A stretch of 64,000 nucleotides of DNA from Shigella phage ESh24: the sequence record ON528734; one strand, written 5' to 3'. The notes under the pieces are model-generated. The model was not told the origin of the DNA, did no database searches, and saw only the letters and a list, made by a program, of their open reading frames with translations. Of the stretch, positions 2,706 to 22,305 are shown in pieces (within the stretch, counting starts at the first letter, position 1; every line of letters begins with the position of its first letter). Both the position numbers and the translations under genes were made by a program.

Positions 2706-3361
2706 GCTATTCTCTCAAAATAATAAAATACCGTAGGTTGTGTGTGACTATCTAGCGTAACAGTTTGCGCACCTAATAATTGCCAAGTTCCGTATCCAGG
2801 TTTAGAAGGAGAAATTATTTCTTGTTTGAAAGTAATTCCTTTATCAGAGTATTGTTCTAAGATATGTTCTTGGTTATCTAAATACTTAACTTGTATTTTA
2901 TTTCCTATGGTAGGATGGTCTTCAAATGAATCAATTGCAATAAATTTTGCAACCATTTCCTGCAGAGCTGTTCTAACGGCACTGGTAAATTCGATTGAAG
3001 TCATTCCATTAGTAGCTTTAACAGGAATGCCAAACATATTAACAATAACTGGGTCACCTGGTTTGGCTGAAGTATCAGTAACAGTTCCTTCAAATGACCA
3101 ATAGTCTGTTTGCTGCACGCCAGTAGGAGATACGCCACTTATATTAACTAATACAGCTCCAACCTGTTGCTCTGCCATATTTCTAACATCATTGATAGCA
3201 GATTCTACATTTGGGTCATAAAAACCTTTTGCTATTTGTGAAATTGTTACAGCGCCTACTGGCTGATTATTCATAACCGAAATATCATTTTTCTTAGTTC
3301 TAAAACCAAGAAAATCTGCTAAGCGGGAAATAACTCCCGCTTTATTATTAAGTAAACTCAT
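2702..3361 (-). CDS. 11: baseplate wedge / short tail fiber attachment protein
   Basis: Start set at [20 protein letters not shown] (219 aa, as T4 gp11); start ATG overlaps gene 10 stop (TAATG); six-frame ORF extends 6 codons upstream. Confidence 0.85.
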
Positions 3362-5166
3362 TATGCAATCCTTATCCAACGGTATACAGTAATAGACGGT
3401 TGAATATTACTAATATTAGCAGGAGGAGTATGTGAAGAGTTTGTTGTTGCATAATCTTCACGATATTTTGTATATATAGGACCAGTTTCATCTGGGTCAT
3501 ATTGGCAACCTCCAATAATAACCGATCCATTTTCGTCTTCAATTAAAACTCTTTCGTCGGTTTTAGTCGCAGGAAGATTTGCGTTTTCAAGTGTCACCGT
3601 TGTTGTTCCAACCGTTCCACCGGCAGTATGTGAAGGATTTCCGCTAGAATCTAAATCATTATTGTTTAAAGCAAAGTTTGGATCCGTAACATCATCATTC
3701 CATCCTACTAAAACTTGTCCTTTACCAAATAATTTCCATGAACCAAATCCCATATAAGTCACCGGATTATTTGGGTTTATAGCATTTTCATAAATTGAAC
3801 CAACAGGATAAATGCTGTCGAAAATAGATGATATTGAATTATACGTTCTAGTATAAGAATCAACTTTTTCAACATTTGGCCAACCGATTTTATCAAAATC
3901 TGTTAAGGCCACATCACCAGTAACTTCAGTAGATGATCCTTTACTAACATAACGGTCATCAGTCAATTCAATGATGTCATCTTTTTCTAAAAGAGTTCCT
4001 AAATCATTATTGAACCATGTTATAACGATTATATCACCTGATTCAAATTTTCTATCAAATAAAAGACTGATCGGTTTTCCATCTTCATATTCTATAGAAT
4101 AATCTGTGTTTGATTCTTTCCATTCACCGCCAAGAGATATACATCCTTCTTGCGTATCTGAATTAGCGCCTTCACATAAAAACAGAGGATATCCGGCTGT
4201 TCCAGCTTGTTGTTGTAAAATTCCATTAAAACGAACTTCAAGAGAGTTAGGATTAATAGGTTCACCAGGAATTAATCCAAAGGCAGAAAATGGAATTGAT
4301 TTCATCGTCGATAAATTAGTAACATAAATGCTTCCTTCTAAAGAAGTCTTTGATGTTAATTTTGAATCTAATACTTTTATTTGACGTCTTGTATATGAAC
4401 TTCTCCACTGCGATACACCATCCATAAATGTTTCAATTTGAACAGTGTCACCAACATTACAAGGCTGTCTTAATCTAATATTAAATCCATCAAGAGGAAT
4501 CAATTCTCCTTCATTTTCCCCAGGAGAGCCAAAGTCACTGTTTTCGCTAAATACATCACCGTAATACAATTCGTTACCACGATGTTTTACTCTGATGTTG
4601 TTGACATTATAACTAGTTCCATTAAAAACATCTAAAAAGTCTGTTTGTCCTTGAACTTCGACTAAAAATTCTTTACGAGCTACATTGCTAATGTCTGAAC
4701 TAATAATTTTGTCAATTTGTTTATTTTTGACATATTCCCAACGACCCGGAGCGCAATAAACTAGCTCTAAATCACTAAATTGAACGTTAATTTCAACCGA
4801 TGACGATGATCCTTTGATAGTATCACCAGAAGCGGCTACTAAAGTAACTGGATTAACATTCCATGTTGCAAATACATCCCTAGCTCTAATTACTTTATTA
4901 TAATCATTAACAGTTCCTTTAGGAAGTTGCAGTGTTACTCTTCCAGACGAAGTATTAATAGCGTATGATTTTCCCCATTCAGCTTTTAACGTTTGCCCAG
5001 ATGAAGCATTATAAGTTTTCCAGGCACCGGCTGAATATGGAACATTACCATCACCAAGTTCATAATAAAGCTCATCAAAGTTTTCATTTATTTTTATACC
5101 ACCTTTACGCAGGTAGTCACCGGTACCATCATCTACAACATTACCGATATTAATATTTTGTTTCAT
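3361..5166 (-). CDS. 10: baseplate wedge protein
   Basis: 601-aa minus ORF; size and synteny match T4 gp10 (602 aa). Confidence 0.9.
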
Positions 5167-20116: not shown

Positions 20117-20189
20117 TGGGAATTAGCCAAGTTGGTAAGGCATAGCACTTTGACTGCTAGATGCAAAGGTTCGAGTCCTTTATTCCCAG
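20117..20189 (+). tRNA. tRNA-Gln (anticodon TTG)
   Basis: Cloverleaf: acceptor tgggaat/attccca, anticodon loop ctTTGac, T-arm ggttcgagtcc; no encoded CCA. Confidence 0.85.
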
Positions 20190-20190
20190 C

Positions 20191-20277
20191 GCGAGAATGG
20201 TCAAATTGGTAAAGGCACAGCACTTAAAATGCTGCGGAATGATTTCCTTGTGGGTTCGAGTCCCACTTCTCGCACCA
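20191..20277 (+). tRNA. tRNA-Leu (anticodon TAA), type II
   Basis: Acceptor gcgagaa/ttctcgc, anticodon loop ctTAAaa, long variable arm, 3' CCA encoded. Confidence 0.85.
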
Positions 20278-20282
20278 AATTT

Positions 20283-20356
<74 letters not shown>

Positions 20357-20402
20357 ATTTATGACTCGTCGTGAGACGCTCAGTTCTTTATTAGGGACTG
20401 AT

Positions 20403-21011
20403 ATGCATTTTTATCTTTATAAAATAACAAATAAAATTAATAATAAAATTTATATTGGTGTGCATTCTACCGAAAATTTAGATGATGGATATATGGGTTC
20501 TGGTAAATTATTAAAAAGAGCCCAAGATAAATATGGTATAGAAAATTTTTCTAAAGAAATATTAGAGTATTTTGACGATAAAGAATCTATGCTTGAAGCC
20601 GAGAAAAATATTGTCACAGAAGAGTTTTTAAATAGACCAGATGTGTATAATTTAAAACTTGGAGGTGAAGGTGGATGGGATCATATAAATAATTATCCTA
20701 TGACAGATCAGCAACGCGAATTAATTTCATTGGGTGTTAAAAAGGCACATTCTAATGGAAAATTAAAAGGATGGTCTTCAAATGGATTAATGAAGAATGG
20801 CTTTGCTGGTAAAACTCATTCTCAAGAAGCTAAACGTAAAATAGCAAAAGCAAACGAAGCAAAAGTTTCTGTGGATGAAAGAAAAAGAAGAATAGAAATT
20901 TCTAAATTATATGATTTTTCTAAACGTGGCGAATTGTCTAAATATGCTAAGCATATTGGCGTAAGTCATACTCAAGCAAAAAGAATTCTAAATCAAATTA
21001 ACAATATATAA
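20403..21011 (+). CDS. segB: GIY-YIG homing endonuclease in the tRNA cluster
   Basis: GIY-YIG motif FYLYKITNKINNKIYIGVHSTENLDDGYMGSGKLLKRA; start ATG 20403 (RBS aggga), alternative ATG 20361. Confidence 0.8.
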   Translation: MHFYLYKITNKINNKIYIGVHSTENLDDGYMGSGKLLKRAQDKYGIENFSKEILEYFDDKESMLEAEKNIVTEEFLNRPDVYNLKLGGEGGWDHINNYPMTDQQRELISLGVKKAHSNGKLKGWSSNGLMKNGFAGKTHSQEAKRKIAKANEAKVSVDERKRRIEISKLYDFSKRGELSKYAKHIGVSHTQAKRILNQINNI

Positions 21012-21017
21012 ATATTT

Positions 21018-21107
21018 GGAGGCGTGGCAGAGTGGTTTAATGCACCGGTCTTGAAAATCGGCAGTCGCTCCGGCGACTCATAGGTTCAAATCCTATCGCC
21101 TCCGCCA
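21018..21107 (+). tRNA. tRNA-Ser (anticodon TGA), type II
   Basis: Acceptor ggaggcg/cgcctcc, anticodon loop cTTGAaa, long variable arm, CCA encoded. Confidence 0.85.
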
Positions 21108-21112
21108 GTTTT

Positions 21113-21188
21113 GCTGATTTAGCTTAGTAGGTAGAGCAACTCACTTGTAATGAGAAGGTCGGCGGTTCGATTCCGTCAATCAGCACCA
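21113..21188 (+). tRNA. tRNA-Thr (anticodon TGT)
   Basis: Acceptor gctgatt/aatcagc, anticodon loop cTTGTaa, T-arm ggttcgattcc, CCA encoded. Confidence 0.85.
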
Positions 21189-21189
21189 A

Positions 21190-21264
21190 GGCCCTGTAGC
21201 TGGAAGGTTCAAGCAAGCGACTCATAATCGCCAGATGGTGGTTCAATTCCACCCAGGGCCACCA
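21190..21264 (+). tRNA. tRNA with anticodon CAT (Ile2 or Met; Ile by position in T4)
   Basis: Acceptor ggccctg/cagggcc, anticodon loop ctCATaa, T-arm ggttcaattcc, CCA encoded. Confidence 0.8.
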
Positions 21265-21276
21265 AATTATGAATTA

Positions 21277-21363
21277 GGGGAGTTATCCCGTAGAGGTAGC
21301 GGTGTGGACTGTAAATCCATTGTCATTGCGACTCGGGTGGTTCGACTCCATCACTCCCCACCA
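21277..21363 (+). tRNA. tRNA-Tyr (anticodon GTA), type II
   Basis: Acceptor ggggagt/actcccc, anticodon stem-loop gtgga-ctGTAaa-tccat, long variable arm, T-arm ggtgg-ttcgact-ccatc, CCA encoded. Confidence 0.75.
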
Positions 21364-21367
21364 ATTT

Positions 21368-21442
21368 GGATGTGTAGCTCAATGGCAGAGCGATCGCCTG
21401 TTAAGCGATTGGTTATAGGTTCGAATCCTATCACGTCCGCCA
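21368..21442 (+). tRNA. tRNA-Asn (anticodon GTT)
   Basis: Acceptor ggatgtg/cacgtcc, anticodon stem-loop atcgc-ctGTTaa-gcgat, T-arm ggttcgaatcc, CCA encoded. Confidence 0.8.
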
Positions 21443-21446
21443 AATA

Positions 21447-21522
21447 CGAGGCATAGCTCAGAAGGAAGAGCAAGGACCTTCTAAGTCCTAGGTCGTAGGT
21501 TCGATCCCTACTGCCTCGACCA
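21447..21522 (+). tRNA. tRNA-Arg (anticodon TCT)
   Basis: Acceptor cgaggca/tgcctcg, anticodon stem-loop aggac-cTTCTaa-gtcct, T-arm ggttcgatccc, CCA encoded. Confidence 0.85.
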
Positions 21523-21538: not shown

Positions 21539-21889
21539 ATGAAAGGTAATGTTTATTTAGTAGTTCACGATTTAACATTTTATTTTAATCACAATGACAC
21601 TGTTATTTCTGAACGTGTAATTAATTTGCTTTATCAACACGCGGATTATGTTTATGTCGAAAACGAATATGGTCATTGGCAATTTCTCAAAAATCGTTCA
21701 TTTGGCTTAGATGGTTACGAATACTTTGAACGTAAAGACCTTTTAGATAAAATTCCGTTATCTACGCAATATCAAAATCACGAGTCTTTATATAAATGCC
21801 GTCCAATTCGAAATGCTGAATCTGCGTATGAAGCAATTGATTTATGGCGTAAACGTCGTGAACAGATTGATGCTTTAAAAGAATATTAA
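21539..21889 (+). CDS. hypothetical protein
   Basis: 116-aa ORF with strong RBS (gtgaggaaaat ATG) immediately after tRNA-Arg. Confidence 0.65.
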   Translation: MKGNVYLVVHDLTFYFNHNDTVISERVINLLYQHADYVYVENEYGHWQFLKNRSFGLDGYEYFERKDLLDKIPLSTQYQNHESLYKCRPIRNAESAYEAIDLWRKRREQIDALKEY

Positions 21890-21894
21890 GAAAC

Positions 21895-22230
21895 CGGGTC
21901 GCTACCGGTAAGTCGTCGGACTGATGTTCCCTGGGTAAGGAATCGTGTTAATAAATCTTTATGATTTGTTGATGCCCTCTTACATCACAGCAGAAACGGC
22001 GCACCGAATTATCGATTCGAGGAAATATCTTTGCCGTAAGCCGAGTAGCGTTTTTGACGGAACGTTCGGATATGGTCGAGATATGGCCTTTTAAAAAAAT
22101 ATTGAGTAGCGTCAACTGCTTAATAACCGGGTTCGAATCCCGGCGTTTCGTACAAACACTTGCCTTAGCAGGTGGAACCCCGACAAGGTTGCCGCAAGGC
22201 TTAGCCCCGACCGAAAGGTTGGGGCTTTTT
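21895..22230 (+). ncRNA. candidate stable structured RNA(s), possibly the counterpart of T4 species 1/2 (rnaC/rnaD) RNAs
   Basis: Visibly more GC-rich than flanks; tRNA-like T-arm aaccgggttcgaatcccgg; ends in terminator gccccgacc-gaaa-ggttggggc + TTTTT (22204-22230); no convincing ORF. Confidence 0.4.
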
Positions 22231-22305
22231 AGTTTGAATCACTCAGAGAATGCTGTTACGGATAATAAATAATTAATAACCAATAAATTATTTCAAGGAT
22301 TTTAA

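What the first reader, a model, noticed from the sequence alone, without database searches (positions are those of the whole stretch)
21895..22230. GC-rich structured non-coding region ending in a strong terminator
The ~340 nt after the 116-aa ORF has much higher GC content than the surrounding coding sequence, contains a tRNA-like T-arm (ccgggttcgaatcccgg), has no credible ORF, and ends in a canonical intrinsic terminator. It is the likely counterpart of the T4 stable species 1/2 RNAs, whose function remains unknown.
Basis: partly seen in the sequence, partly recalled or inferred. Interest (0 to 1): 0.4.

Follow-up and report, generated by a model that had tools for sequence, protein, structure and literature searches.

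The report
Phage T4 stable RNAs C and D
This stretch holds this T4-like phage's copies of two small stable RNAs (T4 "species 2" and "species 1", genes rnaD and rnaC) plus their transcription terminator; the genes have been known since the 1970s, but what the RNAs do is still unknown.

Summary
Window 21886-22231 aligns almost base for base with phage T4 rnaD (species 2 RNA), rnaC (species 1 RNA) and the 3' trailer and terminator that close the T4 tRNA operon. Identity to T4 is 91%, 97% and 95% for the three parts. G+C is 48% against 31-35% in the flanking ORFs. No Rfam family matches. No ORF is conserved.

New here:
- Both RNAs have secondary structures supported by covariation.
- rnaC is a four-way junction. 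Its true 5' and 3' ends form a 7-bp acceptor-like stem that abuts a canonical tRNA T-arm with no nucleotide between them. It also has a long hairpin and a 10-bp hairpin, whose invariant loops (UUGACG and CGUCAA) are complementary to each other.
- The 97-nt "tRNA-Phe(aaa)" that ARAGORN calls inside rnaC is not a conserved fold.
- rnaD is a 5' hairpin plus a long irregular hairpin with an invariant UCCCU bulge.
- rnaD, rnaC and the trailer occur independently of each other across phage genera.

Function remains unknown. My best guess, at about 0.3, is trans-acting protein-binding RNAs, with rnaC mimicking the tRNA acceptor/T-arm. Already known; low to moderate interest.

The parts
21886..22005 (+). 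rnaD orthologue (T4 species 2 RNA), about 120 nt. It has a 5' hairpin H1 (21893-21897 with 21905-21909) and a basal stem S1 (GUCGUCG at 21912-21918 with CGGCG.AC at 21997-22004). Above these are stem S2, an invariant bulge UCCCU (21928-21932), stem S3 and a variable apical hairpin.
   Evidence: It aligns with T4 rnaD at 91% identity. Covariance model R1 scores it 139.8 bits. Seventeen homologues each fold on their own into the same architecture. On the alignment fitted to model R1, 26 pairs are 92% paired and 16 pairs show changes on both sides; 0 of 500 shuffles reach this.
22006..22011 (+). A/U-rich single-stranded spacer GAAUUA between the two RNAs; probable endonucleolytic processing site of the RNase E type (inferred).
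   Evidence: An A/U-rich spacer precedes rnaC in all homologues, whether the upstream neighbour is rnaD or a tRNA. Assigning the cut to RNase E rests on my recollection of the T4 literature and was not tested here.
22012..22152 (+). rnaC orthologue (T4 species 1 RNA), about 141 nt. P1 is a terminal acceptor-like stem (22013-22019 with 22144-22150) containing two adjacent U.U mismatches. P2 is AGG/CCU (22020-22022 with 22087-22089). A long hairpin spans 22026-22083 with apical loop UUGACG at 22054-22059. An A/U-rich linker follows at 22090-22099. P4 is a 10-bp hairpin at 22100-22125 with loop CGUCAA at 22110-22115. The T-arm is at 22127-22143.
   Evidence: It is 97% identical to T4 rnaC. Model R2 scores it 154.6 bits and finds a single copy in the window. 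The RNAalifold consensus has 46 pairs, 21 of them with compensatory changes. A pair count gives 98% paired and 0 of 500 shuffles as high.
22057..22153 (+). ARAGORN's call of 'tRNA-Phe(aaa)', 97 nt. It is a software artefact lying inside rnaC, not a separate gene.
   Evidence: The call itself is. Its acceptor stem (ACGGAACG with CGUUUCGU) is broken at one pair in 8 of 18 homologues and shows no compensatory change. The best tRNA-clan hit in Rfam reaches only 16.9 bits against a threshold of 47. The same stretch is called tRNA-Met(cat) in phage id4496 and tRNA-Lys(ttt) in phage G29, and is not called at all in CIP9 or Kosakonia phage 305.
22153..22202 (+). Conserved 3' trailer: hairpin CACUUGC-CUUA-GCAGGUG (22157-22174), then GGAACCCCGACAAGGUU.
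   Evidence: It is 95% identical to T4 and folds with z = -3.84. The same module follows rnaD directly in MX01 and CUA3, follows protein-coding genes in VR26 and EAWsc9, and is duplicated around an inserted ORF in G50 and G29.
22203..22231 (+). Intrinsic terminator of the tRNA/stable-RNA operon: AGCCCCGACC-GAAA-GGUUGGGGCU followed by UUUUU.
   Evidence: The terminator scan finds it. It is annotated as a terminator in G50 and G29. In T4, transcription of the tRNA cluster is stated to end after the species I RNA gene (PMC2330249).

Best explanation
**Identity (shown).** 21886-22231 is this Tequatrovirus's copy of the last three modules of the T4 tRNA operon. These are rnaD (species 2 RNA, about 120 nt), rnaC (species 1 RNA, about 141 nt) and a conserved trailer ending in the operon's intrinsic terminator.

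**Biogenesis (partly shown in T4, inferred here).** The modules are transcribed as the tail of the long tRNA-cluster precursor. Host RNases then cut them out like tRNAs: one cut falls in the A/U-rich spacer before rnaC, and the 3' end is trimmed back to the terminal stem. The products persist as stable RNAs.

**Structure (shown by covariation).**
- rnaC is a four-way junction. Its 5' and 3' ends form a 7-bp acceptor-like stem that joins a canonical 5-bp T-arm with no nucleotide between them. This is the same 12-bp acceptor/T 'minihelix' as in a tRNA (the coaxial stacking itself is inferred from the tRNA analogy). The D and anticodon arms are replaced by a roughly 60-nt hairpin and a 10-bp hairpin, whose invariant loops are complementary to each other.
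- rnaD is an unrelated module: a 5' hairpin plus a long irregular hairpin with an invariant UCCCU bulge.

**Mode of action (inferred; about 0.3).** Both RNAs act in trans as protein-binding RNAs rather than by coding or decoding. rnaC would present a tRNA acceptor/T-arm mimic without an anticodon and without an encoded CCA. It could therefore occupy a host or phage factor that recognises that part of tRNA, such as a processing or modification enzyme or a tRNA-directed defence nuclease or transferase. rnaD would bind its partner through the invariant bulge.
For: **Identity.**
- NC_000866 annotates rnaC at 70908-71046 and rnaD at 71053-71171, next to tRNA-Arg.
- The alignment of window, T4 and G50 is nearly invariant from GAAACCGGG through GGGGCTTTTT. 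Identities to T4 are 91%, 97% and 95%.
- Synteny holds on both sides, with Trna.2/Trna.3-like ORFs upstream and an e.8-like ORF downstream.
- 808 phage records match the region, and 679 of them cover at least 80% of it.

**Transcription and stability in T4.**
- A primary transcript of about 1.75 kb is the precursor of eight tRNAs and of species I and II RNAs, and it terminates after the species I gene (PMC2330249).
- RNAC was validated by Northern blot, and RNAC and RNAD were classed as late-accumulating RNAs (PMC9697503).

**Structure.**
- rnaC: 50 pairs are 98% paired and 21 pairs change on both sides. The terminal-stem pair A:U switches to G:C in 9 of 18 sequences. Eight of the 10 pairs in P4 covary.
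- rnaD.
- The T-loop fits the tRNA consensus.

**Trans action.**
- The modules occur independently and in different contexts. rnaC sits between tRNA-Trp and tRNA-Gly in id4496. rnaD sits directly after a tRNA in T4, W70, and the Karamvirus and Jiaodavirus phages examined (myPSH1140, KMB20, KpV477). MX01 and CUA3 have rnaD but no rnaC.
- Loops and bulges stay invariant while the neighbouring stems vary.
- A single convergent SNP in the rnaD region of the T4-like phage BW1 raised virulence on host ECOR34 from 0.17 to 0.98 (PMC12685909).
Against: - There are no expression data for this particular phage.
- No binding partner is known, and function has been unknown for about 50 years.
- rnaC fails every tRNA-clan covariance model. 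Its DNA encodes UACAA rather than CCA after the terminal stem.
- In the CIP9 group of Kanagawavirus phages the T-loop is replaced by UGCAUGC, so T-loop identity is not indispensable.
- The loop-loop complementarity shows no covariation, because both loops are invariant. Bringing the two loops together would also require a sharp bend in the long hairpin.
- The BW1 SNP was not reconstructed in a clean background, and it may act in cis.
- From memory, T4 deletions of the tRNA region are viable on laboratory hosts, so any function is conditional.
Confidence: 0.85

Rival explanations
1. The RNAs are cis-acting processing or stability elements. On this view the structured modules exist to guide RNase cleavage or to shield the tRNA precursor from 3' exonucleases. 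The 'stable RNAs' would be inert by-products of tRNA maturation.
For: The modules always sit inside or at the end of tRNA clusters, next to tRNAs and A/U-rich cleavage-type spacers. The trailer is a reusable 3'-end module. From memory, older T4 work reported that RNase III cleavage 3' of species 1 affects maturation of the cluster.
Against: In Kanagawavirus genomes rnaC and rnaD lie between tRNAs, not at the 3' end. In the window and in EAWsc9, rnaD follows an ORF rather than a tRNA. Invariant loops and bulges and the two adjacent U.U mismatches are not needed for a simple nuclease block. A strong terminator hairpin already protects the 3' end.
Confidence: 0.2
2. The RNAs are base-pairing regulatory sRNAs that target host or phage mRNAs through their conserved single-stranded segments: the UCCCU bulge, the UUGACG and CGUCAA loops, and the A/U-rich linker.
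For: Conserved unpaired motifs sit in otherwise variable RNAs. The 2022 T4 transcriptome paper refers to them as 'small regulatory RNAs'.
Against: The conserved unpaired stretches are only 5-6 nt long. No target is known. [quoted passage not shown] A blastn search against 5,426 complete E. coli genomes found no match.
Confidence: 0.15
3. 22057-22153 is a real decoding tRNA (Phe-AAA) with a long extra arm or an intron.
For: ARAGORN calls it. It has a canonical T-arm, and in T4-type sequences it can draw an 8-bp acceptor stem. Public records annotate the homologue as tRNA-Met or tRNA-Lys.
Against: Rfam's tRNA models do not reach threshold; the best tRNA-clan hit is 16.9-18.7 bits against a threshold of 47. 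The acceptor stem is broken in 8 of 18 homologues and never compensated, whereas the competing helices covary. The 'anticodon' differs between close relatives (AAA, CAT, TTT) and lies in an unpaired A/U run. In T4, rnaC is annotated as a 139-nt RNA (140 nt by my recollection of the original sequencing) that includes the 45-nt 5' part.
Confidence: 0.02
4. The region encodes small proteins: the 49-aa GTG ORF at 21945-22094 or the 72-aa TTG ORF at 22054-22272. Many GenBank records annotate 'hypothetical protein' here.
For: The ORFs exist in the window. Automated annotations place coding sequences over the homologous region in many phages.
Against: The 72-aa frame is broken in T4, G50 and most relatives by a 2-nt indel. 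The 49-aa frame is truncated in T4 and spans two modules that are separate in other genera. Substitutions are paired across helices rather than following codon periodicity. T4 has direct RNA evidence.
Confidence: 0.02
5. rnaC is a tmRNA-like or Y-RNA-like (YrlA) ribonucleoprotein RNA.
For: It has a tRNA-like acceptor/T module attached to non-tRNA helices, as tmRNA and YrlA do. From memory, its 5' GAUUCGAGG resembles the GGAUUCGAC motif near the 5' end of tmRNAs.
Against: ARAGORN finds no tmRNA. No tmRNA or Y-RNA family appears in Rfam even at E <= 10. There is no tag ORF and no pseudoknot series. The GAUUCG segment is itself the 5' strand of the covarying terminal stem.
Confidence: 0.04

Closest known systems
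Bacteriophage T4 rnaC (species 1 RNA) and rnaD (species 2 RNA), NC_000866 T4s001 and T4s002
   Same: Sequence is 97% and 91% identical. Order, strand and position at the 3' end of the tRNA cluster are the same, as are the trailer and terminator.
   Different: In T4, rnaD starts 2 nt after tRNA-Arg. In the window a 116-aa ORF (21539-21889, phrog_3355) lies between tRNA-Arg and rnaD, and its stop codon overlaps the start of rnaD. The apical hairpin of rnaD differs in sequence but keeps its pairing.
tRNA (Rfam RF00005, clan CL00001)
   Same: rnaC has a canonical T-arm (G53, UUCGAAU, C61) joined directly to a 7-bp terminal stem. It sits in a tRNA operon and is matured from the same precursor.
   Different: It has no D-arm, no anticodon arm and no encoded CCA, and its stem contains two adjacent U.U mismatches. 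It fails the covariance models (16.9 bits against thresholds of 29 and 47). It is 141 nt long.
tRNA-like domains of tmRNA and bacterial/phage YrlA (Y RNA-like) RNAs
   Same: In all of these an acceptor/T-arm mimic is fused to unrelated helices, and the RNA is thought to act by binding proteins rather than by decoding.
   Different: Neither Rfam nor ARAGORN gives a match. rnaC has no tag reading frame, no pseudoknots and no Ro-binding stem. No partner gene (smpB or rsr) is linked to it.
Phage tRNA clusters proposed as counter-defence against tRNA-targeting host nucleases (PMC10264068, seen)
   Same: Same genomic neighbourhood. This proposal supplies the logic for the decoy hypothesis.
   Different: That proposal concerns functional decoding tRNAs with altered anticodon loops. 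rnaC has no anticodon loop at all.

Membership tests
T4 rnaD (species 2 RNA) | Sequence homology to T4 rnaD over its full length | tested here: met
   91% identity. Model R1 scores 139.8 bits with full-length model coverage, positions 1-119.
T4 rnaD (species 2 RNA) | Location in the tRNA cluster, on the same strand, immediately 5' of rnaC | tested here: met
   The one difference is the 116-aa ORF inserted between tRNA-Arg and rnaD.
T4 rnaD (species 2 RNA) | Accumulates as a discrete stable RNA of about 120 nt in infected cells | not testable with these tools
   Shown for T4 only.
T4 rnaC (species 1 RNA) | Sequence homology to T4 rnaC over its full length | tested here: met
   97% identity. Model R2 scores 154.6 bits with full-length model coverage, positions 1-140.
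T4 rnaC (species 1 RNA) | Last RNA gene of the tRNA operon, followed by the operon terminator | tested here: met
   Terminator at 22203-22231. The T4 statement is in PMC2330249.
T4 rnaC (species 1 RNA) | Accumulates as a discrete stable RNA of about 140 nt in infected cells | not testable with these tools
   A Northern blot exists for T4; nothing is available for this phage.
tRNA (RF00005) | Cloverleaf with D-arm, anticodon arm and a 7-nt anticodon loop, scoring above Rfam's gathering threshold | tested here: not met
   No hit at the gathering threshold. The best hit in the tRNA clan is 16.9-18.7 bits. The ARAGORN acceptor stem is broken in 8 of 18 homologues.
tRNA (RF00005) | T-arm with the conserved T-loop, joined directly to a 7-bp acceptor stem | tested here: met
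   T-arm at 22127-22143 and P1 at 22013-22019 with 22144-22150, with no nucleotide between them. One P1 pair covaries between A:U and G:C, 9 sequences each.
tRNA (RF00005) | 3' CCA end, encoded or added, and aminoacylation | tested here: inconclusive
   The DNA encodes UACAA after the stem in all homologues. Post-transcriptional CCA addition and charging cannot be tested here.
tmRNA | tRNA-like domain plus a tag-peptide reading frame and pseudoknots | tested here: not met
   ARAGORN finds no tmRNA. No tmRNA family reached the list in Rfam at E <= 10.
YrlA / bacterial Y RNA | Match to the family model, with a Ro/Rsr-binding terminal stem | tested here: not met
   No Rfam match at E <= 10. Presence of an Rsr partner was not examined.
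Intrinsic (Rho-independent) terminator | G+C-rich hairpin directly followed by a U-tract, at the end of a transcription unit | tested here: met
   A 10-bp stem with 7 G-C pairs, a GAAA loop and T5. Conserved in relatives, with variation in the 5' strand of the stem.

The most novel reading that the evidence does not exclude
rnaC and rnaD are RNA counter-defence or host-takeover effectors. rnaC would be an anticodon-less mimic of the tRNA acceptor/T-arm, held in shape by a loop-loop kissing contact, that titrates a host tRNA-directed factor such as a defence nuclease or transferase, or a processing enzyme. rnaD would be an independent protein-binding module whose tuning decides success on particular E. 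coli strains, as the convergent BW1 SNP on ECOR34 hints. That would make them the first functionally assigned trans-acting RNAs of T4 and would explain why they travel with phage tRNA clusters.
Probability: 0.15. Interest if true: 0.75.

Novelty: already known. Interest (0 to 1): 0.3.

Why it matters
As a finding it is ordinary. It correctly re-identifies two RNA genes of T4-type phages that were sequenced in the 1970s and are annotated in the T4 reference genome. It matters for two smaller reasons.

**Annotation.**
- Most public T4-like genomes leave this locus blank.
- Others mis-annotate it as 'hypothetical protein', tRNA-Met, tRNA-Lys or worse.
- Rfam has no family for either RNA, so automated pipelines keep getting it wrong.

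**The open question of function.** What these RNAs do is a 50-year-old open question. The comparative structures derived here give concrete, mutable targets for experiments:
- the terminal stem with two adjacent U.U mismatches, adjoining the T-arm;
- the complementary invariant loops;
- the UCCCU bulge;
- the fact that the modules are inherited independently.

Tried and rejected
- **Rfam.** At the gathering threshold it finds only the nine real tRNAs. In E-value mode it gives only sub-threshold noise over the region.
- **ARAGORN's 97-nt tRNA-Phe(aaa).** Rejected by pair counts on 18 homologues.
- **Pairing of the rnaC 5' end with the T-loop** (GAUUCGA with UCGAAUC). I considered this and dropped it, because the CIP9 group changes the T-loop without any compensating change.
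- **A two-piece, tmRNA-like pairing of the rnaD 3' end (GAAACG) with the rnaC 3' strand.** It works only in T4-type sequences, not in Kanagawavirus, so I rejected it.
- **Wider homologue searches for rnaC.**
  - An rnaC end-pattern scan of IMG/VR returned 27 matches: 17 real (Tevenvirinae-like contigs) and 10 that look like chance matches.
  - A loop-anchored rnaC pattern added only one new real locus.
  - A metagenome scan found nothing.
- **Wider homologue searches for rnaD.**
  - A loose rnaD pattern in IMG/VR gave 120 or more matches, and none of the 78 new loci tested with model R1 was confirmed.
  - A stricter rnaD pattern across 185,579 bacterial and archaeal genomes gave 79 matches, nearly all in G+C-rich taxa. 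Model R1 gave only one marginal hit among them, at 16.5 bits.
- **E. coli.** blastn of the whole region against 5,426 complete E. coli genomes found no match.
- **Literature.** Searches for a newly assigned function found none. The original 1970s-80s papers on sequencing and on RNase E/III processing are not in the library, so those details rest on memory.
- **The BW1 SNP.** I could not place it exactly, because no accession or sequence context is given. From the published coordinates it falls about 41 nt from the rnaD 3' end, in the apical hairpin (inference).

Full report
**1. What is there**

The window is a T4-like (Tequatrovirus) genome segment. ARAGORN and Rfam find a tRNA cluster on the + strand at 20117-21522: Gln, Leu, Gly, then Ser, Thr, Met, Tyr, Asn, Arg. 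After tRNA-Arg comes a 116-aa ORF at 21539-21889, and then the flagged stretch.

The flagged stretch is 47.9% G+C. The ORFs on either side are 31.3% and 35.5%, and the window as a whole is 34.8%. It contains CCGGG-TTCGAAT-CCCGG at 22127-22143. It ends in a hairpin with a 10-bp stem, 7 G-C pairs and a GAAA loop, followed by T5, at 22203-22231. Its parts fold better than shuffled controls, with z-scores of -4.75, -2.16 and -3.84.

**2. Identity**

A blastn search of the phage collection finds 805-808 records. Of these, 679 cover at least 80% of the query at about 90-99% identity, and almost all are Tequatrovirus and related Tevenvirinae.

The T4 reference genome annotates two misc_RNAs next to tRNA-Arg: rnaD ('small, stable RNA; species 2 RNA') and rnaC ('species 1 RNA'). 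The window aligns with that T4 interval almost base for base, from GAAACCGGG to the terminator's U-tract. Identity is 91% for rnaD, 97% for rnaC and 95% for the trailer.

Flanking synteny is kept, with Trna.3/Trna.2-like ORFs upstream and an e.8-like ORF downstream.

In window coordinates the parts are:

| Part | Coordinates |
|---|---|
| rnaD | 21886-22005 |
| A/U spacer | 22006-22011 |
| rnaC | 22012-22152 |
| Trailer | 22153-22202 |
| Terminator | 22203-22231 |

**3. What is known**

- PMC2330249 states that T4 tRNA-cluster transcription runs through the whole cluster and terminates after the species I RNA gene. The primary transcript of about 1.75 kb is the precursor of eight tRNAs and of species I and II RNAs.
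- PMC9697503 validated RNAC by Northern blot, classed both RNAs as late-accumulating, and calls their functions unknown.
[quoted passage not shown] Virulence rose from 0.17 to 0.98.
- My recollections that RNase E cuts between species 2 and species 1, and that RNase III cuts 3' of species 1, could not be checked in the library.

**4. Not coding and not a tRNA**

- The window's 72-aa ORF is frame-broken in T4, G50 and most relatives by a 2-nt difference in an A-run. The 49-aa ORF is truncated in T4 and spans two modules that are separate in other genera.
- ARAGORN calls 22057-22153 a 97-nt tRNA-Phe(aaa).
- Rfam's tRNA models do not reach threshold. The best hit in the tRNA clan is tRNA-Sec at 16.9 bits against a threshold of 47. 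The figure is 18.7 bits for the id4496 homologue.
- The same stretch is annotated tRNA-Met(cat) in id4496 and tRNA-Lys(ttt) in G29. It is not called at all in CIP9 or Kosakonia phage 305.

**5. Structure of rnaC**

I aligned eighteen distinct homologues. They come from Tequatrovirus, Dhakavirus (MN04), Kanagawavirus (CIP9, id4496, Kosakonia phage 305), Karamvirus (myPSH1140) and IMG/VR contigs. RNAalifold gives 46 pairs, 21 of them with compensatory changes.

The consensus is a four-way junction with these arms:
- **P1**, formed by the true 5' and 3' ends (CGAUUCG with CGUUUCG). It has two invariant, adjacent U.U mismatches. One pair is A:U in nine sequences and G:C in the other nine.
- **P2** (AGG/CCU), leading into a hairpin of about 60 nt. 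Across its helices 11 pairs change on both sides.
- **An A/U-rich linker.**
- **P4**, a 10-bp hairpin in which 8 pairs covary.
- **A canonical T-arm**, which abuts P1 with no nucleotide between them.

Counted on the alignment, 98% of cells are paired, and none of 500 shuffles or any slid register comes close.

ARAGORN's acceptor stem (ACGGAACG with CGUUUCGU) is broken in 8 of 18 sequences at one pair and never compensated. Its 5' strand instead belongs to the covarying apical helix of the long hairpin.

The apical loop UUGACG and the P4 loop CGUCAA are invariant in all 26 copies and are exact complements of each other. That makes them a candidate kissing contact. It cannot be tested by covariation, and it would require the long arm to bend.

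The CIP9 group carries UGCAUGC in place of the T-loop.

All homologues continue with UACAA after P1, so CCA is not encoded.

**6. Structure of rnaD**

Seventeen homologues each fold on their own into the same architecture:
- a 5' hairpin;
- a basal stem (GUCGUCG with CGGCG.AC);
- a second stem;
- an invariant UCCCU bulge;
- a third stem;
- a variable apical domain, long in T4-type sequences and short in the Karamvirus-type sequences and in W70.

A covariance model built from T4-type sequences recovers the Karamvirus-, Kanagawavirus- and Jiaodavirus-type copies at 14-23 bits. On that alignment 26 pairs are 92% paired and 16 change on both sides, with 0 of 500 shuffles as high. That alignment is fitted to the model, so the counts lean towards the structure.

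**7. Distribution**

The three modules are inherited independently.

| Phage or group | rnaD | rnaC |
|---|---|---|
| MX01, CUA3 (Dhakavirus) | present, followed directly by the trailer | absent |
| Kanagawavirus | present, between other tRNAs | present, between other tRNAs (between tRNA-Trp and tRNA-Gly in id4496) |
| KMB20 (Karamvirus), KpV477 (Jiaodavirus) | divergent copy directly after a tRNA | not detected in the fetched 2.5 kb |
| myPSH1140 (Karamvirus) | divergent copy directly after a tRNA | present about 1 kb downstream |
| W70, A73 (Vequintavirinae, 137-142 kb) | short copy right after tRNA-Met | not detected in the fetched W70 locus |
| VR26, EAWsc9 (Gaprivervirus) | EAWsc9 has rnaD; VR26 keeps only a remnant of its 3' end | absent |

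- In the Gaprivervirus phages the trailer follows protein-coding genes.
- Neither RNA was found outside these phages. The metagenome scan gave 0 hits.
- All other IMG/VR and bacterial-genome pattern matches failed inspection or the covariance-model check.
- There is no match in 5,426 complete E. coli genomes.
- Each RNA occurs exactly once in the window.

**8. How it probably works**

*Shown.* Identity with T4 rnaD and rnaC; conserved, covarying structures; an operon-end terminator.

*Shown in T4 and inferred here.* Co-transcription with the tRNAs, and accumulation as stable RNAs.

*Inferred.* The RNAs are excised at A/U-rich spacers and trimmed back to the terminal stems.

For function I commit, at about 0.3, to trans-acting protein-binding RNAs. 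rnaC presents the 12-bp acceptor/T-arm minihelix that RNase P, the CCA-adding enzyme, TrmA/TruB and several tRNA-directed toxins recognise. It lacks an anticodon and a CCA end, so it could occupy such a factor without entering translation. rnaD would bind its partner through its invariant bulge.

Four things favour trans action over a purely cis role (about 0.2):
- the modules are independent of each other;
- loops and bulges are invariant while adjacent stems vary;
- the position relative to tRNAs and ORFs differs between phages;
- the BW1 SNP has a host-specific effect.

Base-pairing regulation (about 0.15) is less likely, because the conserved unpaired segments are only 5-6 nt long. A specifically anti-defence role is the most novel reading left open (about 0.15).

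**9. Verdict**

The finding is real and correctly interpreted, and it is already known. The added value lies in the structures, in showing that the 'tRNA' calls at this locus are artefacts, and in the modular distribution. Interest is 0.3.

Noticed in passing
window 20361-21011 (+): A 216-aa GIY-YIG/NUMOD3 homing-endonuclease ORF (SegB-like; phrog_314 at E = 1.6e-55) sits between tRNA-Gly and tRNA-Ser, where phage G50 has tRNA-Pro. Compared with G50, the window lacks tRNA-Pro and tRNA-His.
   Followed up: partly
window 21539-21889 (+): A 116-aa ORF of unknown function (phrog_3355, no Pfam hit) is inserted between tRNA-Arg and rnaD. It is absent from T4, where rnaD starts 2 nt after tRNA-Arg. 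Its TAA stop overlaps the first bases of rnaD, so the 5' end of rnaD cannot be produced here by maturation of an adjacent upstream tRNA.
   Followed up: partly
window 21277-21363 (+): tRNA-Tyr(gta) only just passes Rfam's tRNA threshold, at 30.2 bits against 29, whereas the other eight tRNAs score 59-74 bits.
   Followed up: no
window 22043-22051 and 22104-22112: A 9-nt direct repeat, GAGTAGCGT, occurs inside rnaC. One copy leads into the apical helix of the long hairpin and the other into the P4 loop. It may be a trace of an internal duplication.
   Followed up: no
window 22175-22226; trailers in L001, L003, L012, L015, L017, L025, L034, L047, L048: The trailer contains a partial direct repeat of the terminator (CCCCGAC..AAGGUU twice). 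Across phages the 5' strand of the terminator stem varies (CCCCGACC, CCCCUUCC, CCCCAGCC, CCCCUCCC, GCCCUUCC), sometimes creating U.U mismatches. The 3' strand GGUUGGG and the upstream CCCCGAC stay constant, so an alternative long-range pairing is possible.
   Followed up: partly
L002 (G50) 2823-3402; L246 (G29) 612-1190: In many Tequatroviruses a 474-nt ORF is inserted after the trailer and is flanked by two copies of the terminator module. This suggests the module acts as a recombination or insertion site.
   Followed up: no
L003 (phage MX01) 1436-1497: A short, degenerate rnaD-like copy (GCCGUCG...GACUGAU...CGGCGCAAC) lies between tRNA-Arg and the full rnaD.
   Followed up: no
L008 (phage W70, Vequintavirinae) 1493-1592: A 100-nt rnaD homologue lies directly after tRNA-Met in a phage family unrelated to T4. 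It has T4-like basal stems and a Karamvirus-like apical part, and model R1 scores it 94.7 bits. This points to horizontal transfer of the RNA module.
   Followed up: partly
L005, L011, L028, L033 (CIP9-type Kanagawavirus) rnaC, e.g. L005 1509-1648: The T-loop UUCGAAU is replaced by UGCAUGC while the stem and the rest of rnaC are kept. The change is seen in four independent contigs.
   Followed up: partly
Public records: PQ824230 (id4496), MK327940 (G29), and hits H1, H22, H23: The rnaC/rnaD locus is widely mis-annotated. Labels include tRNA-Met, tRNA-Lys(ttt), 'hypothetical protein', 'recombinational endonuclease subunit D13' and 'Early E3 16 kDa glycoprotein'. Among the records listed, only T4, T4T and RB27 carry rnaC/rnaD features.
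   Followed up: partly
L048 (phage EAWsc9) about 925-1000: Two tandem copies of a G+C-rich hairpin (CGGACGGUGCGUCCGG, then CGGAUGGUGCAUCCGG) follow rnaD, ahead of the next ORF.
   Followed up: no
L037, L038 (Karamvirus) about 1280-1420; L039 (Jiaodavirus) about 1280-1420: Downstream of the divergent rnaD there is a hairpin (CCGAAAGU-UUA-CUUUCGG) and a further roughly 120 nt of apparently non-coding sequence conserved between the two Karamvirus phages myPSH1140 and KMB20. It may be another small RNA.
   Followed up: no
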